49,235 nt of DNA, taken from contig JASFYK010000001.1 of the NCBI GenBank assembly GCA_030055545.1, positions 1-49,235 of the forward strand. Reading direction: 5' to 3'. Below are positions 9,331-49,235 of this stretch, piece after piece; the stretch's first letter is position 1, and each line of letters starts with the position of its first letter. Origin of the DNA: Thermoproteota archaeon. Lineage in GTDB: Archaea > Thermoproteota > Methanomethylicia > Methanomethylicales > Methanomethylicaceae. Below the pieces are notes generated by a model. It did no database searches, was not told the origin of the DNA, and worked only from the letters and a program-made list of their open reading frames with translations. The translations under genes were made by a program, and so were the position numbers.

Positions 9331-9406
9331 CTTTCCTTCAATTGAACGCTTGCGCGTATATTATTGAAGGGGATGCAATATATACTTCATCAGAACAGAG
9401 ATCCTG

Positions 9407-19961: not shown

Positions 19962-20776
19962 GCCCTGGCACGATCACCGTGAAGATCGGAGGGGACCTCA
20001 TCAAGGGCGAGGAGCTGAACAGACCCCTCCTCGAAGATCTCTGCACACTATCCAAGCAGGGCGGGCTAGTAGTAGTCCACGGTGGGGGCGACATAGTGAC
20101 AGATTTCGCTAAGAGGCTTGGCAAGGAGCAGGTCTTCGTCGTCTCGCCAGAGGGCTTCAAGAGCAGGTACACCGACAAGGAGACGGCAGAGATCTACGCA
20201 ATGGTTATGGCAGGCATGATAAACACGAAAATTGTAGGCGTCTTGCAGCAGTTCGGAATAAACGCTGTCGGGCTATCCGGGTTCGACGGCGGGCTCCTTA
20301 GGGCCGAGAGGAAGAAGAGGCTCGTGATAGTCGACGACCAGGGCAGGAAGAGGGCTATAGAGGGAGGCTATACTGGAAAGATCTCATCGGTCAACAGCGC
20401 GCTGATAGAGACGCTCCTCTCCAGCGGCTACGTACCGGTGATATCGCCTCTCGCCATGGGTCTTGAATTCGAGCCACTGAATGTTGACGGAGACAGGACC
20501 ACGGCGAGTGTTGCGAAGGCTATACAAGCCGATGCAGTGGTATATCTCACCGACGTTGAGGGGGTAATGGACGGCGACAAAGTGATCAGGAAGATTGCAG
20601 CCCTCGAGGTGGAGGGGCTGCTTGAGAAGATAGGTCCCGGGATGAGCACCAAGATCCATGCGGCGGTGGAAGCGGTAAAGGGCGGGGTCAAGAAAGCAGT
20701 AATAACATCAGGGTTTGTCGAGAGACCGATTTCCTCGGCCTTGGAGGGCAACACGGGCACAGTGATCTCGCTATGA
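19958..20776 (+). CDS. lysZ: Acetylglutamate / LysW-aminoadipate kinase
   Basis: 272 aa. Amino-acid kinase motifs VKIGG and VVVHGGG. ATGA overlap on both sides. Confidence 0.85.
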   Translation: MSPGTITVKIGGDLIKGEELNRPLLEDLCTLSKQGGLVVVHGGGDIVTDFAKRLGKEQVFVVSPEGFKSRYTDKETAEIYAMVMAGMINTKIVGVLQQFGINAVGLSGFDGGLLRAERKKRLVIVDDQGRKRAIEGGYTGKISSVNSALIETLLSSGYVPVISPLAMGLEFEPLNVDGDRTTASVAKAIQADAVVYLTDVEGVMDGDKVIRKIAALEVEGLLEKIGPGMSTKIHAAVEAVKGGVKKAVITSGFVERPISSALEGNTGTVISL

Positions 20777-21948
20777 CCTTCGAAGACACATTCCTTGCAG
20801 ACACTTTCTGGAAGAGACCCATCACGCTCGTGAGGGGGAGGGGCTCCAGAGTCTGGGACAGCAATGGTAAGGAGTACATAGACTGCAGCTGCGGATACGG
20901 CGTTGCCCTGCTCGGGCACTGCCACCCCAAGGTCGTCGAGGCGATCAGCAGGCAGGCATCCCGGCTCCTGACTTGCCACGGATCATTTTACAATGATGCC
21001 AGGGAGGAGTGCCTCTCGAGGCTCCACAAGATCAGGCCGGAGGGGACGGAAAGGGTTTTCCTCTCTAGCACAGGGGCTGAGGCGGTTGAGGCAGCGATTA
21101 AGCTATCGAGGAGATTCACCAAGAAGAAGGGGTTCATAGCCGCTGTCAATGCCTACCACGGGAAGACGATGGGCGCACTGTCGCTTACCTGGGCATCAAA
21201 GTACAGGGAGCCGTTCATGCCGCTATTGGACGGGGTTAAGTTTGCGCCTTATGGGAAAGCCGAGAAGGTTAGGAGTCTCATAGATCAGGATACCGCAGCC
21301 GTCTTCGTCGAGCCAGTCCAAGGCGAGGGCGGCATAAATGTTCCTCCCCAAGAGTACCTCAGGGAGCTTAGGGAGATTTGCGATGAGAAGGGCGTTCTTC
21401 TTGTGCTCGACGAGGTCCAGAGCGGCTTCGGTAGGACAGGTAAGATCTGGGCGCACCAGCACTTTGGGGTCAAGCCAGACATCCTCTGCTCAAGCAAGGC
21501 CCTGGGGGGCGGCGTGCCGATAGCCGCGACGTTCGCAAGGGAAGACATAATGGGATCGATTAAGAGGGGCGAGCATTCAAACACGTTCGGGGGCAATCCG
21601 CTTGCCTGCGCAGCCTGCACGGCAGCCGTTGACGCGCTCATTGGGGAGGGGCTCGTCGAGAACGCAAGGGAAGTGGGGGAGGAACTGAAGAGGGGGCTCT
21701 CCAGCATCGGGAGCAGCTTGGTCAGGGAGGTCCGCGGGCTCGGGCTCATGATCGGGGTGGATATGCGGTTCGAGACCATGGGAATGATACTTCGCTGCCT
21801 TGAAGGAGGGGTCATCGTCCTCGAGGCTGGAAAGACTGTCCTGAGGCTTTTACCTCCGCTAGTCTTGAGCAAAGAAGACGCCAAGACAGTGGTTGAAACG
21901 GTTTCCAATGCTGTGCTGGAGGAAGAGAAGAGGAGAAAAGGTGCATAA
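20773..21948 (+). CDS. lysJ: Acetylornithine / LysW-lysine aminotransferase (class III PLP)
   Basis: 391 aa. LDEVQSGFGRTGK motif and PLP-lysine context SSKALGGG. Confidence 0.9.
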   Translation: MTFEDTFLADTFWKRPITLVRGRGSRVWDSNGKEYIDCSCGYGVALLGHCHPKVVEAISRQASRLLTCHGSFYNDAREECLSRLHKIRPEGTERVFLSSTGAEAVEAAIKLSRRFTKKKGFIAAVNAYHGKTMGALSLTWASKYREPFMPLLDGVKFAPYGKAEKVRSLIDQDTAAVFVEPVQGEGGINVPPQEYLRELREICDEKGVLLVLDEVQSGFGRTGKIWAHQHFGVKPDILCSSKALGGGVPIAATFAREDIMGSIKRGEHSNTFGGNPLACAACTAAVDALIGEGLVENAREVGEELKRGLSSIGSSLVREVRGLGLMIGVDMRFETMGMILRCLEGGVIVLEAGKTVLRLLPPLVLSKEDAKTVVETVSNAVLEEEKRRKGA

Positions 21949-21949
21949 G

Positions 21950-23053
21950 ATGGAAGAAGGGTACCCGGAGAGGCTCCTGCTGCGGATGCTGGAGATATAC
22001 AGCCCGAGCGGTCATGAAAGGGAGATCGGCAGCTTCTTGGCAGAAGAGATGGAAAGTCTAGGTTACAAGGTGACGACTGACAGCGTCGGCAATGTTGAGG
22101 GCAGAGTCGGGTCAGGGAGACCAAAGTTCCTCCTTTGCGGGCACATGGACACTGTGGAAGGTTTCTTGGAGGTCAAGAGAAGGGGCAAGGTCGTATTTGG
22201 CAGGGGGGCAGTCGACGCAAAATCACCCTTGGCAGCCCTAATCTGCGCAGGAAAGCGTTATGTCGAAGATGGCGGAAAGGGCGAGGTGGTTGCACTCGCA
22301 GTCGTGGACGAGGAGGGAAAGAGCAGGGGGATGAGGCATTTCCTCTCCAACCTTAATGAAGAATTCGATTTTGCGGTTTTTGGGGAGCCAAGCAGCGCTT
22401 ATGGGGTAACAGTTGGATACAAAGGAAGGCTCGTCTTCACCGTCACGATCCGAACCTCCCCCGGACACGCCAGCGCCCCCAGGTTCTTTGAAAACGCGGT
22501 TTACATAGGCACAGATCTCGTGAGCATGTTAAGGAGCCTTGATGAAGAATGGGAGGGGTCAGGGGAGGACCTTTTCAAGTCACCTTCGCTGTGCGTCACG
22601 CTATTTCGCGGGGGGGCACAGGATAACACCGTCCCAGGCATCTGTGAGGTCACGGCCGACGTCAGGGTCCCGCCAGGCATGTCGTCAAAGCTGCTAAAAG
22701 ACAAGATCCGGCTGCTCGTTGATGAGTTCAAGAAGGGGAGAGATAAGGCAGAGATCTCTGTGGAATTCAAGGACGAGAATGAGCCCTTCGAGGAGGATCC
22801 GGAATCGCCGCTTGTGAATGCTTTCCTCGAGGCGATAAGGGAGGTCAGCGGCAGAGAGGGCAAGCTCCTCAGGAAGAGCGGCACAAGCGATGTCAATGAC
22901 TTCGTCAGGGCATCGGGCACTCACTCCGTTGTGTATGGGCCCGGCAACTCCAAGCTGGATCACACGCCGATGGAGAACGTCTCCATCGAGGAGTTCTACC
23001 ACAGCATCGAGATCATAAAGAGTGCGATGAAGCGCCTTGACAGTCTCTTCTGA
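21950..23053 (+). CDS. lysK: M20 deacylase LysK/ArgE
   Basis: ATG 21950 lies 2 nt after the lysJ TAA; the 21893 start in the ORF track is an upstream read-through. Motifs CGHMDTV and GRGAVDAKS. Confidence 0.8.
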   Translation: MEEGYPERLLLRMLEIYSPSGHEREIGSFLAEEMESLGYKVTTDSVGNVEGRVGSGRPKFLLCGHMDTVEGFLEVKRRGKVVFGRGAVDAKSPLAALICAGKRYVEDGGKGEVVALAVVDEEGKSRGMRHFLSNLNEEFDFAVFGEPSSAYGVTVGYKGRLVFTVTIRTSPGHASAPRFFENAVYIGTDLVSMLRSLDEEWEGSGEDLFKSPSLCVTLFRGGAQDNTVPGICEVTADVRVPPGMSSKLLKDKIRLLVDEFKKGRDKAEISVEFKDENEPFEEDPESPLVNAFLEAIREVSGREGKLLRKSGTSDVNDFVRASGTHSVVYGPGNSKLDHTPMENVSIEEFYHSIEIIKSAMKRLDSLF

Positions 23054-27695: not shown

Positions 27696-28937
27696 CTACT
27701 TCCTTCTCACTATTGGCTCGATGATTTCGACGATGTCCTCCATCTTCAATGGGGACTTGTTCAGTTCTATCGCGTCCGCAAGGTTGGTGTAGCAGAACGG
27801 GCATGCGCTGGTCACGAGCTCTGCGCCAGTAGCCTCGGCTTCCTTGACACGCTTGCCTGCAGTCTCTAGCGAGTAGTCAGCGAATCCGCCCCTGACGCCG
27901 CCGCCTGCACCGCAGCAGAACGAGAACTTCCGGTTCCGGTACATCTCAACGAGCTGCAGACCCGGCACCGCCTTCAGCACATTCCTCGGGGTCTCGTAGA
28001 CCTCAGCGTGCCTTCCGAGGTGGCACGGGTCGTGGTAGGTCACCTTCTTGTTGAAGCTGCCCGTGAACTCGATCTCGCCCTTCTTCAGCATCTCTTCGAG
28101 CAGGTGTGTGGTGTGCAGGACCTTGACGCCGGTCATCTTGCCGTACTTGTCAGCGTAGCCTTCTGGGGCGTCCATCGTGTAGTCCCTGCCGAGCGTCCTG
28201 TAGCAGCCCGAACAGGTGGTGATGAATGCGGATGCGCCGTACTTCTCCGGTAGTGCCTTGTTGTGCTCGACGAACTTGGCAGCCAAGTCGTACTGACCGG
28301 TCCTGAGCAGAGGCGATGCACAGCACCACTCGTCCTCGACGACAGTGAAGTCAACCTTGAGCTTCTGCAGCAGGCTAACAGTGGCCCTCGCAAGCTGCTT
28401 CCTCCTGTAGGAGGCTGTGCACCCTGCGAAGTAGATGTACTCCGCCTTGCTCGGCATCGAGTACCTAAGGTCGCTTGGCAGCCAGTCTAGCCTCTTCTCG
28501 TGCGGCTCCTTGTACGGGTTGTAGAGCGTTCCGATCGTTGAGCTCCAGGCCTTGATGTTCTCAGGGATTGCTACGTTCTGCTTCCAAGCCTCGTACCTGA
28601 GGGTCTCGAACATCCTCAGGATCCACGGCTTGATGTCGGTCTCGCACATCTGCTGGCAAGCGCCGCACGATGTGCAGGTGAAGAGCACGTGTGCGACCTT
28701 GTCTGACCAGCCGATGCGGTTGTGAAGCAGCGACCTAGCAAGCGAGACCTTGCCCCTGCTGCCCCTGTAGGAGTCGAAGTTGAATTTGTCTCCCTGGACG
28801 CACAGCATCGCGGCGAAGTTTGCTGTCGGACCGTACTCGTAGCCGTACTTGCAGTTGCCGCAGTGCGTGCACATCGAGACCCAGTCGTATATCTTCGCAA
28901 GTTCTTTAAGGTTCTTGTTCTTTAGTAGGTGGGACAT
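27696..28937 (-). CDS. HdrD/GlcF/GlpC-like iron-sulfur protein (2x[4Fe-4S] plus two CCG domains)
   Basis: 413 aa. CTHCGNC and CTSCGACQQMC ferredoxin motifs. CCG-type domains with WCCAS...CSGC and FCCGAGGG...CPFC. Confidence 0.8.
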   Translation of the reverse strand: MSHLLKNKNLKELAKIYDWVSMCTHCGNCKYGYEYGPTANFAAMLCVQGDKFNFDSYRGSRGKVSLARSLLHNRIGWSDKVAHVLFTCTSCGACQQMCETDIKPWILRMFETLRYEAWKQNVAIPENIKAWSSTIGTLYNPYKEPHEKRLDWLPSDLRYSMPSKAEYIYFAGCTASYRRKQLARATVSLLQKLKVDFTVVEDEWCCASPLLRTGQYDLAAKFVEHNKALPEKYGASAFITTCSGCYRTLGRDYTMDAPEGYADKYGKMTGVKVLHTTHLLEEMLKKGEIEFTGSFNKKVTYHDPCHLGRHAEVYETPRNVLKAVPGLQLVEMYRNRKFSFCCGAGGGVRGGFADYSLETAGKRVKEAEATGAELVTSACPFCYTNLADAIELNKSPLKMEDIVEIIEPIVRRK

Positions 28938-28950
28938 CTCTTTCGCCTCC

Positions 28951-30411
28951 TTAACGGATACCCAGCTTACCCGGGTTCATTATGTTGTTTGGATCAAGCA
29001 TATCCTTGATCTTGGCCATCAGGTACAGGTAGCCAGCGTCCGCGACTGCGTTGAGCTCGTTCTGGTACTCAACTGGCGGCTTGTACGGGAGCATGCCCTC
29101 CGGGAGCCCTGCCCTGACGCACTCGACCATTGCGTCCCTCGCAGCCTGGACTGAGGCCGGGTCGCGCTTGTTGAATGGCGTCATGCACCTGAGCATTCCG
29201 TAGTGCGCACCCTGATAGTCAGTGAATCTTGTCGCAGGGGACAGTCCGTGCCTGATGTAGATCTCCTTCCATTTCTCGTAGAGGATGGGCCAGCTCTTGC
29301 ACGGGGCGAAGGTGCCAGGCCATGCGATGCCTCCACCGCAGGACTTGGAGTAGTTCTTGGTCGAACCTACGATCCTGCTCGGGAGCTCGGTCCTTCCCTT
29401 CTTCGCCTCTGGCGGGTACTCGAAGTCATATAGCTTCGTTCCCTTAGCCCTCTCCTTCTCGACCACTTCCTTCCACATCTTCCTCTTGTATGCAAGTTCC
29501 TCCTCGCTCCAACCGGATATCACGGTGTAGCTGAAGAACTCCGGCGCATCAGCAGGCTTCGGGCTGTACGGGAAGACGATCGGTATCTGAGCGAGCCACC
29601 AGCTCACAGCGGTCACTTCGTCGCAGAGCGAATAGTGGCGCCACCTCACCATGTACTTGGTGATGTCCTCTGCGCTTGCGGCAGCGATCGTAAGGACATC
29701 CTTGTACGGGCGGATCGGGAAGATCCAGACACCCAGCTTTGTCACGATGCCGGTTGTCCCGAGCCATCCGGTGAAGAGACCGTCCATGCGGGGCAGCGGC
29801 AGGAACGAGTGCCATGAGTCAGAGTAAGCGCAGGACCCGATCTTTGCCACCTCTCCAGTCGGGAGGACTACCTCCATGCTGCTCATCAGTTGGCTGTTTA
29901 TTCCAATCCTGCCGTTGAGGTGCCCGATTCCGTGGTTAATTGCCATTGCGAGTACAGATGCCGACGGTGGGTGAACGCCCCACCCGAACTCGAATCCCTT
30001 GCTGAATTCCTCTCCTTTCCACTGCGGGTTTGTAGCCTTTAGGGCAGCCGAGAATGCAGCGTGGCTGACACCGGGCTCGATCACAGCGTAACATGTCTCA
30101 GGGTCGATCTTCAGGATCCTGTCCATCTTCTTGAGATCCATTATGATTCCGCCTTCCTCTGGTACGCAGAGGCCGCCGATGTTTGTGCCGTTGCAGTAGG
30201 GAATTACGGGTATCTTGCGATGGTTCGCGAGTCTCACAACGCGCTGGATTTCTGTCACTGTCTTCGGCATGACGACGTAGTCAGGCATCCTTGGTTCGGC
30301 CCAAGTCATGTCCCAAGTGTATGGCTGCAGGTCGGCTTCTTCATTGCTCACATACTCTGGACCAACTATCTGTTCCAGATTTGCAAGTATTTCGTTGTTT
30401 CCTCTAGCCAT
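28951..30411 (-). CDS. FAD-linked oxidase (GlcD / D-lactate dehydrogenase-like, PCMH FAD-binding fold)
   Basis: 486 aa. FAD-binding region VIPYCNGTNIGG...IIMDLKKMDRILKIDPETCYAVIEPGV. GGTGG RBS 6 nt before the ATG. Lies 13 nt upstream of the CCG protein gene. Confidence 0.85.
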   Translation of the reverse strand: MARGNNEILANLEQIVGPEYVSNEEADLQPYTWDMTWAEPRMPDYVVMPKTVTEIQRVVRLANHRKIPVIPYCNGTNIGGLCVPEEGGIIMDLKKMDRILKIDPETCYAVIEPGVSHAAFSAALKATNPQWKGEEFSKGFEFGWGVHPPSASVLAMAINHGIGHLNGRIGINSQLMSSMEVVLPTGEVAKIGSCAYSDSWHSFLPLPRMDGLFTGWLGTTGIVTKLGVWIFPIRPYKDVLTIAAASAEDITKYMVRWRHYSLCDEVTAVSWWLAQIPIVFPYSPKPADAPEFFSYTVISGWSEEELAYKRKMWKEVVEKERAKGTKLYDFEYPPEAKKGRTELPSRIVGSTKNYSKSCGGGIAWPGTFAPCKSWPILYEKWKEIYIRHGLSPATRFTDYQGAHYGMLRCMTPFNKRDPASVQAARDAMVECVRAGLPEGMLPYKPPVEYQNELNAVADAGYLYLMAKIKDMLDPNNIMNPGKLGIR

Positions 30412-32061: not shown

Positions 32062-33201
32062 ATGGAATGCCTCTCCCTATGGCAAGGTGCTCCTGCCGAC
32101 AAAGTTAAAAACGCAGGGCAGGATCAGGAGTTAAGTCAAGGGAAGGGGACAGGATTGGATCTAGAATTGTTGCGCAGGTTGAGTGAAACTCACGGGGTTA
32201 CAGGTTCGGAGTACGGGGTAGCTTCCGTGATCAGGGAAGAGCTCCGCGGGTCTGGGGTCAGAACTTACGAGGATAAATTCGGGAACCTCTTCGCCGAGAA
32301 GGGCAGTGGCGAACGGACGCTGATGGTAGCGGCGCACACCGACGAGATTGGGCTGATCGTGAAGCATATCGATGAGAAGGGGTTCATCAGGTTCGCCAAG
32401 CTCGGGGGGATAGCCGACCAGATCTTGCCTGCCCAGAGGGTGCTGATCCATGGCATGAAGAAGAAGGTGCATGGAGTGATAGGCTGCAAGGCAATCCATG
32501 TGATGAAGGATGAGGAGAGGAAGCAGCTCCTGACATATGACAAGATGTTCATAGACACAGGTGCGACCAAGGAGCAGCTTGAAGGATACGGCATAAGGGT
32601 CGGAACACCCATTACCTTGATAAGGGGGCTGACTGAGCTTGAGAACGATCTTGTTGTTGGGAAAGCCATGGATGACAGGGCAGGCTGTTATGTACTTATC
32701 GAGGCCCTGAAAAAGGCGAATCCAAAGAACAAGGTTGTTGCAGTCTTCACAGTCCAAGAAGAGGTGGGGCTTAGGGGCGCTACAATGAGTGCGTACGCAG
32801 TAAAGCCGGACGTTGGCATCGCGATTGACACCACTATTGCAGGGGATCACCCCGAGCTCTCTGAGCAGGATGCGCCTGTGAAGCTGGGTAAAGGGCCAAC
32901 GATAGTGGTCGCAGATGGGAGGAAAGATTCGCTCGGTGGAGGTATGATCGCGAACCCAATTGTCAGGGGTTGGCTCATGGAACTAGCAGATTCCAGCGGG
33001 ATACCGTACCAGCTCGAAGTTCTGGAAGGGGGGACAACAGACGCAGCAGCAATCCAGATGTCACAGTCAGGCATCCCATCTGCATGCATATCGATCCCCT
33101 CGAGGTATGTCCACAGCTTCAGCGAGGTAATATCAAAGAAAGACCTTGAGAACTGTGTCGAACTCCTCGTCAAAGCAATGGAAAGCAAAACACCTTTCTA
33201 G
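32062..33201 (+). CDS. M42 family aminopeptidase (TET/FrvX type); likely start TTG 32155
   Basis: Motifs AAHTDEIG, MDDRAG and VQEEVGLRGA. The first ~30 codons of the tracked ORF look like non-coding read-through. Confidence 0.85.
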   Translation: MECLSLWQGAPADKVKNAGQDQELSQGKGTGLDLELLRRLSETHGVTGSEYGVASVIREELRGSGVRTYEDKFGNLFAEKGSGERTLMVAAHTDEIGLIVKHIDEKGFIRFAKLGGIADQILPAQRVLIHGMKKKVHGVIGCKAIHVMKDEERKQLLTYDKMFIDTGATKEQLEGYGIRVGTPITLIRGLTELENDLVVGKAMDDRAGCYVLIEALKKANPKNKVVAVFTVQEEVGLRGATMSAYAVKPDVGIAIDTTIAGDHPELSEQDAPVKLGKGPTIVVADGRKDSLGGGMIANPIVRGWLMELADSSGIPYQLEVLEGGTTDAAAIQMSQSGIPSACISIPSRYVHSFSEVISKKDLENCVELLVKAMESKTPF

Positions 33202-33896
33202 TGTGCAAGATGTCTCTCGAAAGGAGGATAAACTTCGACAAGGTTTACGAATACGGGGAGAAGGGGATAATAGGCAAAGAGGAGTTCACCTCCTTCTTCG
33301 AGAGAATGCCTTTGCTTGAGAAGGCACTACGGGAAACTGAAGAAGCGTCGGGGTTGCAGTATCCGCCTGTACTCTTCGAACCTGCCCTCACGATAATCAG
33401 GTACCCTTCATCGACTTTCTCTGGTGCCGTCATATATGCTTCATGCAAACTGATGGAGTACAAGGGTGAGCTCCAGCCTTGCGTTGTGTTCTCTGTACCC
33501 TTCGTAATACTATCAAGCGAGGACGTGCTGAGGGCATGCGCGGTCCACGAGTTCTTGCATTACATTTACATCACAAAAGTCCTTTCCAAGGGTAACTACA
33601 TGGACTTGGCAGGCGAGAGGCTGGACTCGATCGAGGTCCACCAAGCATATGACGAAACCCACACGGTCCCCCCTGGCGAATGGATCCGAAACGCAGAATT
33701 GGTCGAGCTCGTGAAGAAAATATTCAACCCAAATATAGATGACCCAGATCTTGAGGCGGCGATAAGGGAGAAGTGGATCGAGAAGGGCTTGCCTGTGAAA
33801 TACACGACCGCAGAGGAAGCCAAGTTGAAGATCCCAATAGAAGAGATTCAGAGAGTCAGGCTTGACATGAAGGTTCTGCAAAGGCTGGCGCCCTGA
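33201..33896 (+). CDS. Hypothetical protein with HExxH zincin motif (probable start ATG 33210)
   Basis: About 228 aa. Single AVHEFLHY (HExxH) motif. Abuts the M42 peptidase stop. No family recognised. Confidence 0.5.
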   Translation: MCKMSLERRINFDKVYEYGEKGIIGKEEFTSFFERMPLLEKALRETEEASGLQYPPVLFEPALTIIRYPSSTFSGAVIYASCKLMEYKGELQPCVVFSVPFVILSSEDVLRACAVHEFLHYIYITKVLSKGNYMDLAGERLDSIEVHQAYDETHTVPPGEWIRNAELVELVKKIFNPNIDDPDLEAAIREKWIEKGLPVKYTTAEEAKLKIPIEEIQRVRLDMKVLQRLAP

Positions 33897-41361: not shown

Positions 41362-43038
41362 ATGAAGCCAAATAGGTCAATACCGCCAGGGGTGATGATG
41401 ATCCTAACGATGAATTTCGCATACGTGAGGTTCAAGGACGGCATGAGTAGAGCACTATCTCCAGATCAGTACGATGTTATAGCTATACTCGAAGCATCAG
41501 ACTCCCTGAGGAAGAAGTGGAGGAGTGTGCTCAAGCTCTTCAGGGAGGAAAAGAAGAGGATAGACTTCATTTTCAGGATTTATTACCCAGTTTATCTCGT
41601 CAGGCTTGAGGGCAGAATTGTAGCGGTCGATGGGCTGGGGGTTCAGGAGAGCCACTTCAACGAAGATAGCCTTGCAGACGGAATGATACTGAGCTCAAAA
41701 ACAGTCTTCGAGCCAGTTTTCGGAACCGATTTGTGCAATTGGCTCGGGGAATGGCATGAGATGGCATCAGAAGCCGAAGAAATAAGGAACGGTTTCGCGC
41801 TCCCTCCCACGATTTCAAAGGAAGGTGCCAAGAAGGCAGCAACCGAGTTAATAAGGATCCATGATTTCAACTTGGAGACGGTCAAGAAGATCGAAGACAA
41901 AATTTCTGAGCTGAACGAAGAATACAATAAAGCCCTACTCGGGCTGGTCGAGGAACAGAAGGCGCTCCTTGAGAACTTCGACAAAAAAATTTCGTTGAAG
42001 AGCACTGAGATAGAGGGGCTTGAAACTTACAGCGAGATGAAGATGATCAGGGAGCTTAAGACAAACTTCAGCAAGAAGCTCGAATCGATAAAAAAACAGA
42101 AGGCTGAGGTCGAGCAGACTAGGCACAAGACTGCAGAGAGGATATCGGAGCTGGAAGGTGAGAAGGCAAAGCTGCTCTCGCTGAAGAATTCACTTTCCAG
42201 CAAAATAGCTTCTTTGAGCCTCAGGCTTGAGAGGCTCCGTGACGAGAAGCAGAGACTGAATTCGCAAGGGAACGACCCTAAGATGATCAGCGAGAACCTT
42301 ATCAATTCGGAGAAGATCAGAAGGGAAATCGACAATCTCCAGAGAGAGCTCGAAAGCTGCGTCTCAAAATTCAACCAGATCTCTGGCGAAATCAGTACGC
42401 TGACTGAAAGTTTGAACGGGCTTGACAAGCAGTTGGAGACTCTCAAAGAAAAGGAGAGATTACTGCCGTCAAAAGAGGAGGAGGAGGTAAACAAAGTCCG
42501 CTTGTGTTTTGCAGGAAGGCGCGAAAATCTCGTGAAAGAACTGATGGAGTTGACTGAAGAGAAGGAAAGAAGACTGACAGAAATAAAGACCAGAGAGAGG
42601 CAGGAAAGAGCAAAACACAACAACGAACTCCGAAGGCTGCAGTTCTTGCTCGCCAAGTCAAAAAATGACTTCCAGGCAGTGGAATCAATCATGCTACAAG
42701 ATGAGGGGGAGGCGAGGTGGGAACTGGAGATTTTGTACATACCGTTTTATGTTTACTCAATCGAGGGTGATTTCAGGATCCTTGAGCCCCAGATTCTCAT
42801 TGAAGAGGGAGGGAAGATAGCGAAGTCGGGAGGCACCTGCTTGGTGAGCGGGGGTCTCGAACACTTGCAGGGGAACTGGGATGCGCTGTCGCTGCTGCTC
42901 TTCAAAGCGAAAGACAGCTTCAACCTCCTATCCCTCCAGAACCGGAGGAGGATAATCTCGGCTGCAGAGTCACTCAGGTCTATGCGGGTCATAAATGACT
43001 TCCAGCTCTCCTACATCAGGGCGGTTGAGACGAAATGA
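41362..43038 (+). CDS. Long coiled-coil protein of unknown function with similar N- and C-terminal beta-modules
   Basis: 558 aa. About 280 central residues are E/K/L-rich heptad-like sequence (nt about 41855-42696). The N-terminal IFRIYYPVYLVRLEGR and C-terminal EILYIPFYVYSIEGDF motifs resemble each other. An A/T box directly abuts ATG 41362, so ATG 41395 is an alternative start. Confidence 0.7.
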   Translation: MKPNRSIPPGVMMILTMNFAYVRFKDGMSRALSPDQYDVIAILEASDSLRKKWRSVLKLFREEKKRIDFIFRIYYPVYLVRLEGRIVAVDGLGVQESHFNEDSLADGMILSSKTVFEPVFGTDLCNWLGEWHEMASEAEEIRNGFALPPTISKEGAKKAATELIRIHDFNLETVKKIEDKISELNEEYNKALLGLVEEQKALLENFDKKISLKSTEIEGLETYSEMKMIRELKTNFSKKLESIKKQKAEVEQTRHKTAERISELEGEKAKLLSLKNSLSSKIASLSLRLERLRDEKQRLNSQGNDPKMISENLINSEKIRREIDNLQRELESCVSKFNQISGEISTLTESLNGLDKQLETLKEKERLLPSKEEEEVNKVRLCFAGRRENLVKELMELTEEKERRLTEIKTRERQERAKHNNELRRLQFLLAKSKNDFQAVESIMLQDEGEARWELEILYIPFYVYSIEGDFRILEPQILIEEGGKIAKSGGTCLVSGGLEHLQGNWDALSLLLFKAKDSFNLLSLQNRRRIISAAESLRSMRVINDFQLSYIRAVETK

Positions 43039-45803: not shown

Positions 45804-46379
45804 GTGGTTGGATTGGGTTTCGAGAAGCTTGCCAAGGCAGCCGCAGTTCTCAAGAACGTGCCCAGGACGGGCTGGATCCAGAGGGGAGTGCCTAGGGGAG
45901 AGGCCGAAACAGTTGCGGAGCACACATTCATGGTTACGGCGATCCTAGGCTACATATCGACCAGCTCCAGGGAACCGCACCTAAACCGGGAGAGGATGAT
46001 CCTCATGGGGATAATACACGACATTGGGGAGGCCGTCTCAGGCGATATCCCCAGAGGGCTCACCGAGAGGCTAGGGAAGAAGCTCAAGGAGGGGATCGAG
46101 ACCGAAATAATCAAGGGTATCTTTGACGACCCCGACGACGGCAGTCTAGCTGAGCTCTTCCTAGAGTACTTGGAGAGGGAGACGACCGAGGCCAAGGTAG
46201 TCAAAATCGCAGATCTTCTGGCCACGCTCTGGCAGGCTGAGGCATATCTCAAGAGGGGCTTCCCAGTCGGAGATATAATCGAATCCTGCAAAGAGGAGGC
46301 GCAGGGCATGATCGAGGAAATACGAGAGGAGGATCTCAGCCTTCTTTTGAAGGCGATCCTTGGGTCGAAAGGCAGATAA
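45804..46379 (+). CDS. HD-domain phosphohydrolase (YfbR-like 5'-deoxynucleotidase family)
   Basis: 191 aa. LKNVPRTGW, AEHTF and IIHDIGEAVSGD (HD) motifs. Confidence 0.8.
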   Translation: MVGLGFEKLAKAAAVLKNVPRTGWIQRGVPRGEAETVAEHTFMVTAILGYISTSSREPHLNRERMILMGIIHDIGEAVSGDIPRGLTERLGKKLKEGIETEIIKGIFDDPDDGSLAELFLEYLERETTEAKVVKIADLLATLWQAEAYLKRGFPVGDIIESCKEEAQGMIEEIREEDLSLLLKAILGSKGR

Positions 46380-46393
46380 ATCGATCTGGGTGT

Positions 46394-46684
46394 TTGATAA
46401 CCATGGCAAAAGATGGAGAAGGACAGCAGGAGAAAGCGCCTGGAAACGGGGAAGAGAAGCAATACTACATGCCGATCCCAGCGGGGACGCCATACTCTGT
46501 TATTGCAGAAGCCGTCAACAGGTTTGGGGTCGAGCTGACGGAAAAAGAAGTGATCGTTCCTGGGATAGGGGAGAACGAGACAGCACCACTCACATGGGTG
46601 CTAGTCGGAAGCAGAGAGAGCCTTGAGAAAGCCCACGAATTCATTGTTAGAAAAATGACGGAGATGCTGGAGAGGTTTAGGTAG
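46394..46684 (+). CDS. Hypothetical small protein
   Basis: 96 aa, 14 nt downstream of the HD gene. Charged/low-complexity N-terminus followed by a plausible alpha/beta core. No motif recognised. Confidence 0.4.
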   Translation: MITMAKDGEGQQEKAPGNGEEKQYYMPIPAGTPYSVIAEAVNRFGVELTEKEVIVPGIGENETAPLTWVLVGSRESLEKAHEFIVRKMTEMLERFR

Positions 46685-47192
46685 GCGCTTCGCCGCCTAG
46701 GTGAGCGCTCATACGCTTGTCCTCTTCTAGCATCTCGCTCTGGAGGTCTTTCACGATCTTCGCGATTGCGCTCAGGAAGATCTGCTCTACTGCTCTACCG
46801 AGCGAGGCCCCGAGCTCGTCGCAGAGATCCGATACCTTCTCGGAATTCCTGTCCAAGAATGAGTAAAAGGACTCTGCCACGACCTGGTATAGGTCTTCTT
46901 CCAACTCGGAGTCGCTTCCCTCACCGATCCCGATCGAGAACTCGAGCGCATAAAGGTCAGGCCCTTTCCCTTTTCCTGGGATCCGCCTGACCAATCTTGC
47001 GTTTACCAATTTATCCAGCCGGTCTGATGCATCCTTCTTGCTGATCAGGAGTACCTCCGACATCCGATCCATCGTCAGCGGACCCTTCTGAAGGGACAGG
47101 AGGGCTTCACGCGACTTGTCATCAAGTAGGGCGCTGCAGACCTCTGCAAGTTTTTCGTCAGGAACCACTAGGCATGCCATTGTTATCACCAA
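46677..47192 (-). CDS. Putative winged-helix DNA-binding protein, last gene of the mcrD-like/mcrC/mmp5 operon
   Basis: About 167-171 aa (ATG 47180 or TTG 47192). wHTH-like LSLQKGPLTMDRMSEVLLISKKDASDRLDKLVNARLVRR plus a helical C-terminal half. The start overlaps the mmp5 3' end by about 23 nt. Confidence 0.55.
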   Translation of the reverse strand: MVITMACLVVPDEKLAEVCSALLDDKSREALLSLQKGPLTMDRMSEVLLISKKDASDRLDKLVNARLVRRIPGKGKGPDLYALEFSIGIGEGSDSELEEDLYQVVAESFYSFLDRNSEKVSDLCDELGASLGRAVEQIFLSAIAKIVKDLQSEMLEEDKRMSAHLGGEAPT

Positions 47193-47622
47193 GAGACTTG
47201 AGGAATGACCTTATCTTTGAGACCATTATCCTAGCATCGTCCTCTGTGCGCGGGTAAGGGACCACTACAACCGGAATTTCCCTACGCTTTAGTATGTATC
47301 GGATGAATTCGTTAGTTCTGCCACAGCTGGCGCACCCGAAAAGGGCCTCTGGATCCTCTACCACGATTGCTGCGTCTGCCTCTTCTATGAGCGGGCCGAT
47401 CAGTGCCAGGCGGCCCCTCACACCGGACGGGACCTCTATCGCAGCGTACTTCAACCCCCTCCTGGGGAACTCTGGGGTGATGTTCATCGGCGGAGAGTCT
47501 ATCTCCGGCTTCGAGAGGTTCTTCGCGACCTCCTCGCCGAGACCGAGCGGCGTATGCCCCTCACGCGTGACGAGGTCGTACAGGATTAGACTGTTGGGCG
47601 GAAATATGAACACTTTAGCCAA
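47158..47622 (-). CDS. Methanogenesis marker protein 5 (Mmp5)
   Basis: 154 aa. FIFPPNSLILYDLV, GLKYAAIEVPSGVRGR and FGCASCGRTNE segments match my recollection of marker-5 proteins. GGAGG lies 9 nt before the TTG start. 8-nt overlap with mcrC. Confidence 0.7.
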   Translation of the reverse strand: MAKVFIFPPNSLILYDLVTREGHTPLGLGEEVAKNLSKPEIDSPPMNITPEFPRRGLKYAAIEVPSGVRGRLALIGPLIEEADAAIVVEDPEALFGCASCGRTNEFIRYILKRREIPVVVVPYPRTEDDARIMVSKIRSFLKSLGDNNGMPSGS

Positions 47623-48283
47623 TATTATTCCTCCCGAGTATCACTTCTCTGCGGTCTATCTTGCTCAACCAGAACTTCACTTTTATCACTATCTCATTCA
47701 GCTTGTCCCTTGGGCAGCTGACTCCCCGGACGACGCCTGTGACTAGGTCCACTATCACCCCGGCGCATTCGACCTTGCCAGGAGGCGGCCGAACCAGCCT
47801 AGTGATTATCCCGACCTTCGCAAAGTCCTCATAGTCCACAGGGGCCTCGCAGACAATTATCGCAGGTATGTCGACATACCTCAGGAACGACTTTGCTTTG
47901 TGAACCACATGACCGCTGATCCCGCCCAAGTGTATGAGTGCAAGCTTGAAACGCCTTATCTGGAATACCTCTTTTTCGTTCATGCCAGCCATCGATCCGC
48001 CAGGCGCGCCGCCATACGGCGAGTCGGGAGGGACGCCGGCCCCGGACTCGAGAACAAGTACGCTCGTCCGTATCCCCTGCTCCCTGAGGCCATATGTGAT
48101 CTCGCAGATCGGCTTGGTTATGTGTCGCTTCGAAGGTGACATCGCAATTGCGACTACCTCGAAGCTCTCGGATTCTGAAATTGTCCCCCGCTGGGCCAGA
48201 CCGCCGCCCTCTCCGATGCCCATCGACTCCCTGCAGTCGACAATCTGCACATCCCTGCCAATCGAATCCTGCAATCGGTTCAC
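47615..48283 (-). CDS. mcrC: Methyl-coenzyme M reductase operon protein C
   Basis: 222 aa. QIVDCRESMGIGEGGGLAQRGT and VAIAMSPSKRHITKPICEITYGLREQGI are hallmark McrC segments. GTGA overlap with the upstream gene. Confidence 0.85.
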   Translation of the reverse strand: MNRLQDSIGRDVQIVDCRESMGIGEGGGLAQRGTISESESFEVVAIAMSPSKRHITKPICEITYGLREQGIRTSVLVLESGAGVPPDSPYGGAPGGSMAGMNEKEVFQIRRFKLALIHLGGISGHVVHKAKSFLRYVDIPAIIVCEAPVDYEDFAKVGIITRLVRPPPGKVECAGVIVDLVTGVVRGVSCPRDKLNEIVIKVKFWLSKIDRREVILGRNNIG

Positions 48284-48606
48284 CTTTCCAACCCGCGGAG
48301 GTAGTCCTTGACGGTCGGCCTCGGCTTGGTGAACTGCCCTACTCTCACATCGTAGCCATAGGGCATGGTCTGGTCGCAGACAGGCTTCAGCTTTGCAATG
48401 ACATCTTCAGGCGCGAAGCCAGTTTTCACTACAATTATGAACCTGCCCGTGAGTCGCCCTCCTCCGGAAAACCTAGGACCGTGGGTCAGAACCTCCTCGA
48501 CCCCCTCGGTATCGCGAATTATCGCGGCTAAATCTTTTGCCTTCTTGTCGCTCATCAATCGCCTTGGCATGACCTCGATTTCCCTGAATTGAGCTTGCTG
48601 AGACAT
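48280..48606 (-). CDS. mcrD: Compact McrD-like protein
   Basis: 108 aa. The N-terminus EIEVMPRRLMSDKKAKDLAAIIRDTEGVEEVLTHGP and C-terminus YDVRVGQFTKPRPTVKDY parallel McrD (IEIFP.R.L...HGP ... VG.FTK...TV.DY). The central segment of canonical ~150-aa McrD proteins is missing. Confidence 0.6.
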   Translation of the reverse strand: MSQQAQFREIEVMPRRLMSDKKAKDLAAIIRDTEGVEEVLTHGPRFSGGGRLTGRFIIVVKTGFAPEDVIAKLKPVCDQTMPYGYDVRVGQFTKPRPTVKDYLRGLER

Positions 48607-48675
48607 CCCGGATCACTAACCTATAAATTAATCAGGGATTTAATAATGTAGTGCTACCGCTGGAGTGAGGCCCCA

Positions 48676-49235
48676 TTGAAAATCGTTGTTGACGGGAATG
48701 AGTATGAGGCAGTAGAGGGAGAACGCCTGGGCGCGATGCTTGTAAAGCTGGGCATAAGGGGCAAAGAGGGGTGCATAATCGCGGTCAAGAAGAAGGTCAG
48801 AGAGGAGAGTGTCGAAACAAATCTATTTGAAATTGAAACAACTAGGGGCCGAATGATACTGAGAATAGAGTGCGACGAACTCCTCGAGAGATGGAGGGAG
48901 TCCTGCCACGGCTACGAAGGAGCAGGTGTGAGGTGGACCACGAAGGATGCTGTAGTTTTTGGATCCACCATATTCGACGCCCAGCCCTCAATGGAACCGG
49001 TCAGTCTCGGGAGATATGAGGTGACGCTTAGCCTGTCCGGGCTCAGCAAAGAGAACACTCTCCTTGTCTTCTCGAAGCGACCGCATTCTGCTTCCTATTA
49101 CCCGCCCAAGGGATGCGCTGTCCTGGGGAGGGTGGTCTATGGCAGACACCTAGTCGGGCTGCTCAAGATGGGGGACAGGATCCTTTCGATTAAACCGGTA
49201 CTCGAGACCAAGGAGCTGGCAAAGTCACTGCTCAA
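48676..49235 (+). CDS. Methanogenesis marker protein 3 (UPF0288-like), 3'-truncated by the window edge
   Basis: Open frame from TTG 48676 (in-frame TAG at 48649) to the window end; absent from the ORF track. LKIVVDGNEYEAVEGERLGAML..., VRWTTKDAVVFG and LSLSGLSKENTLLVFSKRPHSASY resemble Mmp3 N-terminal regions as I recall them. Confidence 0.65.
   Translation, partial: MKIVVDGNEYEAVEGERLGAMLVKLGIRGKEGCIIAVKKKVREESVETNLFEIETTRGRMILRIECDELLERWRESCHGYEGAGVRWTTKDAVVFGSTIFDAQPSMEPVSLGRYEVTLSLSGLSKENTLLVFSKRPHSASYYPPKGCAVLGRVVYGRHLVGLLKMGDRILSIKPVLETKELAKSLL

What the first reader, a model, noticed from the sequence alone, without database searches (positions are those of the whole stretch)
46677..49235. 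MCR-accessory gene cluster (mcrD-like, mcrC, mmp5, wHTH; divergent mmp3) with no mcrABG in the 47 kb to its left
Four genes on the minus strand are chained by start/stop overlaps (GTGA at 48280-48283, 8 nt at 47615-47622, about 23 nt at 47158-47180). They encode a McrD-like protein, McrC, methanogenesis marker 5 and a winged-helix protein.

A marker-3-like gene diverges from the same 69-bp A/T-rich spacer. McrC and Mmp3/5 are known components or partners of the machinery that activates methyl-coenzyme M reductase.

In classical methanogens mcrC and mcrD sit inside mcrBDCGA. Here they are detached from any catalytic subunit within this window and re-wired to marker genes. That organisation is what one expects in non-classical MCR or alkyl-CoM reductase lineages, so the contig to the right deserves attention.
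Basis: partly seen in the sequence, partly recalled or inferred. Interest (0 to 1): 0.7.

Follow-up and report, generated by a model that had tools for sequence, protein, structure and literature searches.

The report
Methane-enzyme helper genes, standard Methanosuratincola layout
This is the set of helper genes that assemble and switch on the methane-forming enzyme in a non-classical methanogen (Methanosuratincola); the genes are real, but their separation from the enzyme genes is the normal, already catalogued layout for this whole group of archaea.

Summary
On the minus strand lie a short McrD (108 aa), McrC, methanogenesis marker 5 and a winged-helix protein. They are chained by overlaps or 1-5 nt gaps, and Mmp3 diverges across a 69-bp spacer. 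No mcrA/B/G is in the window.

The window is 99.4% identical to a Methanosuratincola MAG (Thermoproteota, class Methanomethylicia) and about 85% identical to the isolated methanogen M. petrocarbonis.

All 27 Methanomethylicia loci I fetched, including two closed genomes, share the same order: Mmp3-Mmp6-Mmp17-Mmp7, an A2-like ATPase and a RACo-like protein on one side, and McrD-McrC-Mmp5 on the other. None has mcrBGA within 10 kb.

Shao et al. 2022 already list this class as "BGA // DC".

Residual points:
- The short McrD form is shared by TACK lineages and ANME-1.
- A 49-bp promoter core is nearly invariant.
- Mmp5 has a weak fold resemblance to double-cubane-cluster proteins.
- The neighbouring ABC ATPase is the zinc-motif-less A2 paralogue, not A2 itself.

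The parts
48676..49235 (+). mmp3 (methyl-coenzyme M reductase-associated protein Mmp3). This is the N-terminal 186 codons, cut by the window end. It is the first gene of the divergent operon mmp3-mmp6-mmp17-mmp7-A2-like-RACo-like.
   Evidence: TIGR03268 scores 122 bits over profile positions 1-182 of 503. The full-length orthologue in L001 scores 488 bits against a cut-off of 234. It matches the M. maripaludis Mmp3 chain 8S7V_J at E 9e-9. The TTG start is conserved in orthologues.
48607..48675 (.). 69-bp divergent intergenic region with two TATA-like boxes (CTATAAATTAAT and ATTTAATAAT on the + strand) and the short palindrome GTAGTGCTAC. I infer it is a bidirectional promoter and operator.
   Evidence: Read from the sequence. 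The 49-bp core is 94-98% identical across Methanosuratincola-like loci, whereas the flanking coding DNA is 67-91% identical. Promoter function is inferred, not shown.
48280..48606 (-). Short-form mcrD (108 aa), inferred to be the MCR assembly and F430-insertion chaperone.
   Evidence: Pfam MCR_D scores 51 bits (gathering score 25), while TIGR03260 scores 53.5 bits, below its cut-off of 100. It matches PDB McrD 8GF5_X (E 1e-8) and 8W33_A. The AlphaFold2 model has pLDDT 80, and the top four Foldseek hits are McrD structures with TM 0.65-0.67. Orthologues of 105-130 aa occur in TACK lineages and ANME-1.
47615..48283 (-). mcrC, the electron-transfer subunit of the MCR activation complex. The start is GTG 48283 (222 aa) or TTG 48274 (219 aa).
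   Evidence: TIGR03264 scores 284 bits against a cut-off of 213.5. It matches M. maripaludis McrC 8S7V_I at E 7.7e-69. The four [8Fe-9S-C] cluster ligands C12, H49, C55 and H118 (PMC12176620) align to C17, H54, C60 and H125 here.
47158..47622 (-). mmp5 (methanogenesis marker 5, DUF2112), 154 aa, with an invariant CxxC motif (C97, C100).
   Evidence: TIGR03271 scores 209 bits against a cut-off of 140; Pfam DUF2112 scores 200 bits. There are 1356 homologues, 55-64% identical even to Methanocaldococcus and Methanopyrus. Invariant columns are listed. No solved relative is found by sequence. The fold resemblance to DCCP and 2-hydroxyacyl-CoA dehydratase is weak.
46677..47180 (-). Winged-helix (ArsR/MarR-type) protein, 167 aa, with an uncharacterised C-terminal half. 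It is the last gene of the operon and I infer it is an autoregulator.
   Evidence: Pfam HTH_5 scores 25 bits (gathering score 22) and MarR_2 23 bits. It overlaps mmp5 by 23 nt, and GGTGAT precedes its ATG. By tblastn it is present in the Methanosuratincola and Methanomethylicus loci and several other Methanomethylicia loci, but is not detected in nine loci: L016-L019, L021-L024 and L026.
46394..46684 (+). MJ0093-like small protein, convergent with the HTH gene; their 3' ends overlap by 8 bp. It is a conserved neighbour of the cluster.
   Evidence: Public gene tables carry a precomputed Pfam PF27275 (MJ0093) hit for it. It is retained next to the cluster in nearly all Methanomethylicia loci. 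It sits next to the short mcrD in two other arrangements, L084 and L099. Its function is unknown.
45804..46379 (+). HD-domain phosphohydrolase (YfbR-like), a conserved neighbour. It is probably not part of the system.
   Evidence: Pfam HD_3 scores 78 bits. Its position is conserved in most Methanomethylicales loci.

Best explanation
**What it is**
The window ends inside the MCR assembly and activation gene cluster of an uncultured Methanosuratincola species. This is a methyl-reducing methanogen of class Methanomethylicia, phylum Thermoproteota.

**Layout**
- One operon runs leftward: short mcrD, mcrC, mmp5 and a winged-helix gene. It appears translationally coupled, with overlaps or 1-5 nt gaps and Shine-Dalgarno-like motifs inside the preceding gene.
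- A second operon runs rightward out of the window: mmp3, mmp6, mmp17, mmp7, a zinc-motif-less A2-like double-ABC ATPase, and a RACo/AcsV-like corrinoid reductive activase.
- The two share a 69-bp bidirectional promoter region.

**How it works (by homology to M. maripaludis and M. acetivorans)**
- McrD binds apo-MCR at the McrA N-terminal latch and helps F430 enter.
- McrC, Mmp7 and Mmp17 carry three [8Fe-9S-C] clusters that pass very low-potential electrons to Ni(II)-F430, making the active Ni(I) form. Mmp3 and component A2 hold the McrA latch open in an ATP-dependent way.
- Mmp5 is an essential-looking but biochemically unassigned member of the same operon elsewhere. I infer it belongs to an Fe-S or electron-input module that works with the HgdC-like ATPase Mmp15.
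- I infer the winged-helix protein regulates the shared promoter.

**Where the catalytic genes are**
mcrBGA, bona fide A2, mmp15 and ycaO-tfuA lie elsewhere in the genome, as in all relatives.

**Shown versus inferred**
- Shown here: gene identities, conserved cluster ligands in McrC, class-wide synteny, and absence of mcrABG nearby.
- Inferred: co-transcription, regulation, the Mmp5 role, and complex formation in this organism.
For: - **Gene identities:**
- **McrC:** matches the solved activation-complex chain at E 7.7e-69, with all four cluster ligands conserved.
- **McrD fold:**
- **Organism:** the window is 99.4% identical to GCA_038825825.1 and about 85% to the M. petrocarbonis and M. verstraetei genomes.
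- **Synteny:** identical in 27 of 27 Methanomethylicia loci, including two complete genomes. There is no McrA/B/G within 10 kb, while 55 of 56 euryarchaeal loci have mcrC inside or cut from mcrBDCGA.
- **Published 'BGA // DC' pattern** for every Methanomethylicales genome in the table, including two Methanosuratus (now Methanosuratincola) genomes: PMC9584954 supplement.
- **Activation complex and operon:** PMC12176620 and bioRxiv 10.64898/2026.03.18.712670.
- **McrC acts in trans:** PMC9584954.
- **mcrBGA, A2 and Mmp15-YcaO-TfuA** lie about 18 kb beyond mmp3 in a related Methanomethylicaceae contig.
- **Operon junctions and Shine-Dalgarno-like motifs:**
- **Promoter-core conservation:**
Against: - mcrBGA of this particular organism was not located. 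Its presence rests on congeners.
- The ABC ATPase in the neighbouring operon is not bona fide A2: TIGR03269 scores 318 bits against a cut-off of 517, it has a single Cys and no CxxC motif. The cluster therefore does not hold the complete known complex.
- Mmp15 is not in the cluster.
- The short McrD fails the NCBIfam equivalog cut-off, and no short McrD has been tested biochemically.
- There are no transcript or binding data for the promoter or the wHTH protein.
- The Mmp5 fold match is below significance (E 0.03-0.08).
Confidence: 0.88

Rival explanations
1. The cluster serves an alkyl-coenzyme M reductase (ACR), and the organism is an anaerobic alkane oxidiser rather than a methanogen.
For: A detached 'DC' or 'C' locus is also typical of ACR-bearing lineages such as Helarchaeales, Hadarchaeia, Syntropharchaeum and Ethanoperedens in the PMC9584954 supplement.
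Against: - The window is a Methanosuratincola, and the isolate of that genus makes methane from methanol or monomethylamine plus H2.
- Methanomethylicales McrA loci carry single mcrBGA operons whose McrA is 63-72% identical to euryarchaeal methanogen McrA. They sit beside ycaO-tfuA and bona fide A2.
- McrC here is 55-60% identical to Methanocella-type and Bog-38-type McrC.
Confidence: 0.03
2. The genes are remnants in a lineage that has lost mcrABG, kept for another role or decaying.
For: No mcrABG lies in the 49-kb window or in 10 kb to its right. Remnant methanogenesis markers in non-methanogens are documented in PMC9635834.
Against: - All ORFs are intact, score at or above family cut-offs and keep the cluster ligands.
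- The promoter core is under strong constraint.
- Congeners carry mcrBGA on other contigs or on the same contig, and one is a cultured methanogen.
Confidence: 0.03
3. The 108-aa gene is not a McrD at all. It would be an unrelated small ferredoxin-like (beta-alpha-beta) protein that only superficially matches the McrD profile.
For: It is below the NCBIfam equivalog cut-off (53.5 bits against 100) and about 40-60 aa shorter than canonical McrD. Lower Foldseek hits are generic alpha/beta sandwiches such as CutA and S6.
Against: - It passes the Pfam gathering score.
- Both its N- and C-terminal segments align to McrD of 8GF5.
- The four best structural matches are all McrD, with probability 1.00 and TM 0.65-0.67. 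They cover the whole 118-residue ordered core of 8GF5_X.
- It is always next to mcrC or mcrA in TACK genomes, and in Korarchaeia the 130-aa form sits in mcrBDCGA.
- No other mcrD is listed for these genomes.
Confidence: 0.05

Closest known systems
'mcrBGA // mcrDC' arrangement catalogued for Methanomethylicia, Bathyarchaeia BA2, Hadarchaeia, Helarchaeales and Methanolliviera (Shao et al. 2022, Commun Biol, PMC9584954, Supplementary Data)
   Same: An adjacent mcrD-mcrC pair detached from mcrBGA. The same genus is listed: Methanosuratus petracarbonis GCA_001717015.1 and M. subterraneum GCA_004028775.1.
   Different: Nothing differs in arrangement. This window comes from a different species, about 85% nucleotide identity to the isolates. 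The table does not record the linkage to mmp5, the wHTH gene or the divergent mmp3 operon. I find that linkage to be class-wide.
MCR activation complex of Methanococcus maripaludis (McrC, Mmp7, Mmp17, Mmp3, A2; PDB 8S7V, 8S7X, 9H1L; Ramirez-Amador et al. 2025, PMC12176620)
   Same: McrC matches at E 7.7e-69 with all four L-cluster ligands conserved. Mmp3, Mmp7 and Mmp17 orthologues score above family cut-offs next door.
   Different: In M. maripaludis, mcrC is inside mcrBDCGA and the marker genes are scattered. Here mcrC sits with the marker genes and away from mcrBGA. The adjacent ABC ATPase is the zinc-motif-less paralogue, not A2.
'MCR activation operon' of Methanosarcina acetivorans (A2 plus Mmp5, Mmp6, Mmp17, Mmp7, Mmp3, Mmp15; Adler & Nayak, bioRxiv 10.64898/2026.03.18.712670)
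   Same: Mmp5, Mmp6, Mmp17, Mmp7 and Mmp3 are clustered with a double-ABC ATPase.
   Different: - Here the genes are split into two divergent operons.
- mcrC and mcrD are added.
- Mmp15 and bona fide A2 are placed elsewhere: beside ycaO-tfuA and mcrBGA in the related family.
- An A2 paralogue, a RACo-like activase and a wHTH gene are added.
Methanomassiliicoccales 16-kb methanogenesis-marker cluster (Borrel et al. 2014, PMC4153887)
   Same: McrC is encoded with AtwA and the marker genes rather than inside the mcr operon (mcrBDGA).
   Different: There mcrD stays in mcrBDGA and the whole set lies within about 16 kb of mcr. Here mcrD has moved with mcrC, and mcrBGA is more than 10 kb away.
McrD of Methanosarcina acetivorans (PDB 8GF5, 8GF6; Chadwick et al. 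2023) and of Methanomassiliicoccus luminyensis (PDB 8W33)
   Same: The same fold (TM 0.65-0.67, probability 1.00), with conserved N- and C-terminal sequence segments.
   Different: The protein is 108 aa, against 134-184 aa for canonical-length McrD relatives in the exhaustive search. It lacks about 24 residues in the middle and has shorter termini. It falls below the TIGR03260 cut-off. It belongs to a short form shared by TACK lineages and ANME-1.

Membership tests
McrC (TIGR03264, methyl-coenzyme M reductase operon protein C) | Full-length match above the curated equivalog cut-off | tested here: met
   284.1 bits against a cut-off of 213.5, covering profile positions 1-192 of 194.
McrC (TIGR03264, methyl-coenzyme M reductase operon protein C) | Ligands of the two [8Fe-9S-C] clusters held by McrC (C12, H49, C55, H118 in M. 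maripaludis) | tested here: met
   They align to C17, H54, C60 and H125 of the window protein.
McrC (TIGR03264, methyl-coenzyme M reductase operon protein C) | Location inside the mcr operon (mcrBDCGA) | tested here: not met
   No mcrA/B/G lies within 47 kb to the left or 10 kb to the right. Operon position is known to be dispensable, because McrC acts in trans (PMC9584954).
McrC (TIGR03264, methyl-coenzyme M reductase operon protein C) | Physical association with MCR, Mmp7, Mmp17, Mmp3 and A2 | not testable with these tools
   This needs a pull-down or cryo-EM from Methanosuratincola.
McrD (Pfam PF02505 / TIGR03260) | Profile match above the family threshold | tested here: inconclusive
   Pfam scores 51.1 bits, above the gathering score of 25. 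NCBIfam equivalog scores 53.5 bits, below its cut-off of 100.
McrD (Pfam PF02505 / TIGR03260) | McrD fold | tested here: met
   The AlphaFold2 model has pLDDT 80. The top four Foldseek PDB hits are McrD (8W33, 8GF5, 8GF6), with E 6e-6 to 4e-5 and TM 0.65-0.67.
McrD (Pfam PF02505 / TIGR03260) | Binding to apo-MCR and a role in F430 insertion | not testable with these tools
   No short-form McrD has been studied biochemically, to my knowledge.
Methanogenesis marker 5 (TIGR03271 / DUF2112) | Full-length match above the curated cut-off | tested here: met
   209.1 bits against a cut-off of 140.25, covering profile positions 1-142 of 142.
Mmp3 (TIGR03268) | Full-length match above the curated cut-off | tested here: met
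   The window fragment scores 122 bits over 182 of 503 positions. The complete orthologue, 99% identical over the shared part, scores 487.9 bits against a cut-off of 234.
'MCR activation operon' (A2, Mmp3, Mmp5, Mmp6, Mmp7, Mmp15, Mmp17) | Mmp3, Mmp5, Mmp6, Mmp7 and Mmp17 clustered | tested here: met
   All five lie within 6 kb, each above its NCBIfam cut-off.
'MCR activation operon' (A2, Mmp3, Mmp5, Mmp6, Mmp7, Mmp15, Mmp17) | Bona fide component A2 (TIGR03269, with the zinc-binding motif) in the cluster | tested here: not met
   The cluster ATPase scores 318 bits against a cut-off of 517, has one Cys and no CxxC. A protein scoring 754 bits with two CxxC motifs lies near mcrBGA in the related contig L086.
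'MCR activation operon' (A2, Mmp3, Mmp5, Mmp6, Mmp7, Mmp15, Mmp17) | Mmp15 in the cluster | tested here: not met
   No Mmp15 lies within 10 kb of the cluster in any Methanomethylicales locus. It lies beside ycaO-tfuA in the mcrBGA block.
ArsR/MarR-type winged-helix transcription factor | wHTH domain match | tested here: met
   Pfam HTH_5 scores 25.1 bits (gathering score 22). MarR_2 scores 22.9 bits, below its score of 27. NCBIfam HTH_metalloreg scores 22 bits, below 55. The support is marginal.
ArsR/MarR-type winged-helix transcription factor | Sequence-specific DNA binding at its own promoter | not tested
   The only evidence is a constrained 49-bp promoter core with a 4+4 palindrome. The repeat finder reports no inverted repeat of 8 nt or more.
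Alkyl-coenzyme M reductase (ACR) lineage accessory cluster | The host genome encodes ACR-type McrA | tested here: not met
   The host genus is a cultured methyl-reducing methanogen. Methanomethylicales mcrBGA loci are of the canonical type, with ycaO-tfuA and A2 alongside.

The most novel reading that the evidence does not exclude
In Methanomethylicales the two divergent operons would form one separately regulated 'cofactor re-reduction' regulon. It would be driven from an almost invariant 49-bp bidirectional promoter under the operon's own winged-helix protein.

The regulon would couple three things:
- MCR Ni(II) to Ni(I) reactivation: McrC, Mmp7, Mmp17, Mmp3 and the zinc-motif-less A2 paralogue.
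- Co(II) to Co(I) reactivation of methyltransferase corrinoid proteins, by the RACo-like activase.
- F430 loading, by the short McrD.

In addition, Mmp5 would be a single-domain relative of the double-cubane-cluster protein / 2-hydroxyacyl-CoA dehydratase family. Together with the HgdC-like ATPase Mmp15 it would inject the low-potential electrons.
Probability: 0.15. Interest if true: 0.55.

Novelty: already known. Interest (0 to 1): 0.2.

Why it matters
MCR makes nearly all biogenic methane, and how it is assembled and reduced to the active Ni(I) state was only resolved structurally in 2025. This window adds no new kind of system. It is the orthologous accessory cluster of a further Methanosuratincola species, in the layout already tabulated for the class.

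Its practical value is modest:
- It confirms that the activation machinery, including the McrC cluster ligands, is conserved outside Euryarchaeota.
- It gives a compact natural operon (short McrD, McrC, Mmp5) that could be useful for heterologous MCR expression.
- It yields three small leads worth a specialist's glance: the short McrD form, Mmp5 as a possible DCCP-like partner of Mmp15, and the A2 paralogue plus RACo linkage.

Tried and rejected
1. **Does the RACo-like activase replace Mmp15?** Rejected. Mmp15 exists in Methanomethylicales, beside ycaO-tfuA near mcrBGA.
2. **Is the ABC ATPase next to mmp7 component A2?** Rejected. It scores below the TIGR03269 cut-off and has no zinc-binding CxxC pairs. 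The real A2 is elsewhere.
3. **Locating mcrBGA of this very organism.** This failed.
   - The exact look-up of my 222-aa McrC model found nothing, because gene callers use the 219-aa start.
   - Protein searches list only the best 120 hits, so a euryarchaeal McrA query would not reach this genus.
   - A metagenome scan with a Methanomethylicales McrA gave 12 class-level mcrBGA loci (L087-L098). Only the WYZ-LMO11-like lineage overlaps a cluster locus. None of the contigs carrying the 93%-identical short-McrD orthologue P0001 is among the McrA contigs.
4. **The Nature papers on the two cultured strains** are not held in the library.
5. **Sequence search of Mmp5 and its profile against PDB.** Nothing significant.
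6. **Rfam scan of the window.** Nothing.
7. **Inverted-repeat search of the spacer.** Nothing of 8 nt or more.
8. **L052 as a source of a TACK-like McrA or Mmp15.** Its mcrA is frame-shifted, and its downstream genes are HdrE/HdrD-like and radical SAM.

Full report
**1. Observation**

On the minus strand:
- A 108-aa ORF lies at 48280-48606 with an ATG start.
- A 222-aa ORF lies at 47615-48283. Its GTG start overlaps the preceding TGA as GTGA. An alternative TTG at 48274, preceded by GGTGA, is the start chosen by public gene callers (219 aa).
- A 154-aa ORF lies at 47158-47622. Its TTG start is preceded by GGAGG and overlaps the preceding gene by 8 nt.
- A 167-aa ORF lies at 46677-47180. Its ATG start is preceded by GGTGAT and overlaps the preceding gene by 23 nt.

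On the plus strand, an ORF starts at TTG 48676 and runs off the window. The spacer 48607-48675 is 69 bp. It is 55% A+T overall and holds two A/T-rich boxes.

**2. Gene identities**

Profile searches give:
- McrC: TIGR03264, 284 bits against a cut-off of 213.5.
- Methanogenesis marker 5: TIGR03271, 209 bits against 140.
- Mmp3 N-terminus: TIGR03268, 122 bits over positions 1-182 of 503.
- An ArsR/MarR-type winged helix: Pfam HTH_5, 25 bits against a gathering score of 22.
- A McrD-like protein: Pfam MCR_D, 51 bits against 25, but TIGR03260 only 53.5 bits against 100.

McrC matches the McrC chain of the solved M. maripaludis activation complex (8S7V_I) at E 7.7e-69. The four residues that ligate its two [8Fe-9S-C] clusters are C12, H49, C55 and H118 (PMC12176620). 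They align to C17, H54, C60 and H125 here.

The McrD-like protein aligns to the McrD of 8GF5 in an N-terminal and a C-terminal segment. Its AlphaFold2 model has pLDDT 80. The model's four best PDB matches are the McrD structures 8W33, 8GF5 and 8GF6, with probability 1.00 and TM 0.65-0.67. It is therefore a compact McrD, roughly the ordered core of the canonical protein.

**3. Organism**

The window is 99.4% identical over 11 kb to contig JAWBOU010000002.1 of GCA_038825825.1. It is about 85% identical to the complete genomes of Methanosuratincola petrocarbonis LWZ-6 and M. verstraetei LCB70. It is thus a further species of a genus that has an isolated methyl-reducing methanogen and a known mcrA (PMC12244365).

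**4. Surroundings**

tblastn with McrA, McrB and McrG finds nothing in the window. The rest of the window is housekeeping: TYW2, deoxyhypusine synthase, a LysX/ArgCBDE cluster, a class II aminoacyl-tRNA synthetase, agmatinase, HMG-CoA reductase and others. It also holds a GlcD-like plus HdrD-like gene pair.

To the right, the near-identical contig continues as follows:
- Mmp3 (488 bits), Mmp6 (133 bits), Mmp17 (123 bits) and Mmp7 (392 bits), all above their cut-offs.
- A double-ABC ATPase.
- A RACo/AcsV-like corrinoid activase with a [2Fe-2S] domain.
- An unknown 181-aa gene.
- A TrpY-family regulator.

The ABC ATPase is not component A2. It scores 318 bits against a cut-off of 517, has one cysteine and no CxxC motif. 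A protein scoring 754 bits with two CxxC motifs lies elsewhere in a relative. It corresponds to the 'A2 homolog lacking the zinc-binding motif' described by Adler & Nayak.

**5. Is the arrangement unusual?**

I mapped 18 marker proteins onto 83 loci.
- All 27 Methanomethylicia loci carry the same order. These include the 2016 'Verstraetearchaeota' genomes V1 and V3 and both closed genomes. The order is: (TrpY, unknown 181-aa gene), RACo, A2-like, Mmp7, Mmp17, Mmp6, Mmp3, then the divergent McrD, McrC, Mmp5, (HTH), MJ0093-like, (HD). Brackets mark genes present in most but not all loci.
- None of them has McrA, McrB or McrG within 10 kb.
- All euryarchaeal loci have mcrC inside mcrBDCGA. One (L052) is mcrBDGA with mcrC nearby.

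The literature already records this.
- The supplementary table of Shao et al. 2022 lists every Methanomethylicales genome as 'BGA // DC'. That includes Methanosuratus petracarbonis and M. subterraneum. 'DC' also appears for Bathyarchaeia BA2, Hadarchaeia, Helarchaeales and Methanolliviera.
- Detached mcrC is described for ANME-1, Methanoperedens and Methanomassiliicoccales.
- The 'MCR activation operon' is named and shown to be co-transcribed in M. acetivorans.

**6. Where is mcrBGA?**

In a 650-kb Methanomethylicaceae contig (L086, the lineage of L019 and L024), the RACo-like gene is followed by five housekeeping genes. After those come Mmp15, YcaO, TfuA, bona fide A2, an AIRS-domain gene, DUF2098, a HAD hydrolase, DUF483 and, on the opposite strand, mcrA-mcrG-mcrB. 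That places mcrBGA about 18 kb from the mmp3 start.

The block from mcrBGA to Mmp15 is conserved in the other Methanomethylicales McrA loci long enough to show it. For Methanosuratincola itself I could only show two things:
- mcrBGA is more than 10 kb away on both sides.
- In M. subterraneum, mcrBGA and the DC pair share a 371-kb contig.

In Nezhaarchaeales everything, including mcrBGA, lies within about 15 kb.

**7. Mechanism**

By homology, the functions are:
- McrD chaperones apo-MCR and F430 insertion at the McrA N-terminal latch.
- McrC, Mmp7 and Mmp17 relay electrons through three L-cluster-like cofactors to Ni(II)-F430.
- Mmp3 and A2 hold the latch in an ATP-dependent step.

Co-transcription and translational coupling of mcrD-mcrC-mmp5-HTH are inferred from the junctions and the internal Shine-Dalgarno-like motifs.

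The shared promoter region is strongly constrained. Its 49-bp core is 94-98% identical between genomes whose flanking coding DNA is 67-91% identical. I infer that the operon's wHTH protein acts there, but nothing tests this.

**8. Residual leads**

(a) The short McrD (105-130 aa) is a recognisable form. It occurs in Methanomethylicia, Bathyarchaeota and Korarchaeia. ANME-1 also carries it, although that group is often said to lack mcrD.

(b) Mmp5 is very conserved, at 55-64% identity to Methanococcales and Methanopyrus. C97 and C100 are invariant, and it has no solved relative by sequence. The five best Foldseek hits of its model are all double-cubane-cluster protein or 2-hydroxyacyl-CoA dehydratase chains. 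These are below significance (E 0.03-0.08, TM 0.37-0.47). A non-significant profile hit lands on the same protein. Those enzymes are reduced by HgdC-type ATPases, which is the family of Mmp15. mmp5 and mmp15 are adjacent in Nezhaarchaeales and in L099. This is a lead, not a result.

(c) An MJ0093-like small gene accompanies the short mcrD in three different arrangements.

**9. Verdict**

The system is the known MCR assembly and activation gene set, in the layout that is standard and already tabulated for this class. Interest is low.

Noticed in passing
window 48607-48675, compared with L004-L007, L027 and L029: The 49-bp core of the divergent spacer is 94-98% identical across Methanosuratincola-like genomes, whereas the flanking coding DNA is only 67-91% identical. 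The core holds two TATA-like boxes and the 4+4 palindrome GTAGTGCTAC. In other Methanomethylicia the spacer is 44-826 bp long and differs in sequence.
   Followed up: partly
window 48280-48606; proteins P0010-P0026: The 108-aa McrD belongs to a short form (105-130 aa). It occurs in Methanomethylicia, Bathyarchaeota, Korarchaeia (130 aa, inside mcrBDCGA) and ANME-1/Methanophagales (103-147 aa). ANME-1 is often described as lacking mcrD.
   Followed up: partly
L001 4832-6511 and 2944-4842 (just right of the window); L086 13088-14686: The double-ABC ATPase that follows mmp7 is the zinc-motif-less A2 paralogue (318 bits against a cut-off of 517; one Cys). The RACo/AcsV-like corrinoid reductive activase that follows overlaps it by 11 nt. 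Bona fide A2 (754 bits, two CxxC motifs) sits near mcrBGA in a relative. What the paralogue does next to the activation genes is unknown.
   Followed up: partly
window 47158-47622 (Mmp5); model ma53950fb37fd: The five best structural matches of the Mmp5 model are all double-cubane-cluster protein (6ENO, 7YYL, 7YZM) or 2-hydroxyisocaproyl-CoA dehydratase beta (3O3M_B). All are below significance (E 0.03-0.08). The partners of those enzymes are HgdC-type ATPases, the family of Mmp15. mmp5 and mmp15 are adjacent in Nezhaarchaeales (L084) and in L099.
   Followed up: partly
window 46394-46684; L084 7819-8112; L099 about 11773: An MJ0093-like small gene (Pfam PF27275 in public tables) accompanies the short mcrD in three different gene arrangements. 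In the window its 3' end overlaps the HTH gene's 3' end by 8 bp, in convergent orientation. Its function is unknown.
   Followed up: no
window 27696-28937 (-) and 28951-30411 (-): An adjacent HdrD-like gene (two CCG domains) and a GlcD-like FAD-binding gene. HdrD has been proposed to regenerate CoM and CoB in Verstraetearchaeota, which lack hdrABC (Hua et al. 2019, PMC6783470).
   Followed up: no
L021 8950-9667 and L022 7965-8792: In two Methanomethylicaceae MAGs the divergent spacer is expanded to 716 and 826 bp. The L021 insert encodes what looks like the C-terminal zinc-ribbon part of a TnpB/OrfB-type transposon protein (read by eye: ...CPNCKYTCNADYNGAMNILKRA...).
   Followed up: no
L086 10001-21045; L087-L098: Methanomethylicales keep a conserved block: mcrB-mcrG-mcrA, DUF483, a HAD hydrolase, DUF2098, an AIRS-domain gene, A2, TfuA, YcaO and Mmp15. 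This places the thioglycine-modification genes and the DUF2098 small protein next to MCR. DUF2098 is mentioned as a McrC contact in the 2025 structure paper.
   Followed up: partly
window 41362-43038 (+), 33201-33896 (+), 14324-14848 (-), 9361-9885 (-): Four sizeable ORFs (558, 231, 174 and 174 aa) have no Pfam match at E <= 1e-4 or 1e-5. The 558-aa ORF overlaps the start of a GT4 glycosyltransferase gene and is conserved in L001-L003.
   Followed up: no
window 18058-23053 (+): A LysX, ArgC, ArgB, ArgD and M20-peptidase gene row, the LysW-type lysine/arginine biosynthesis layout. It is preceded by an Lrp/AsnC regulator and is ordinary.
   Followed up: no
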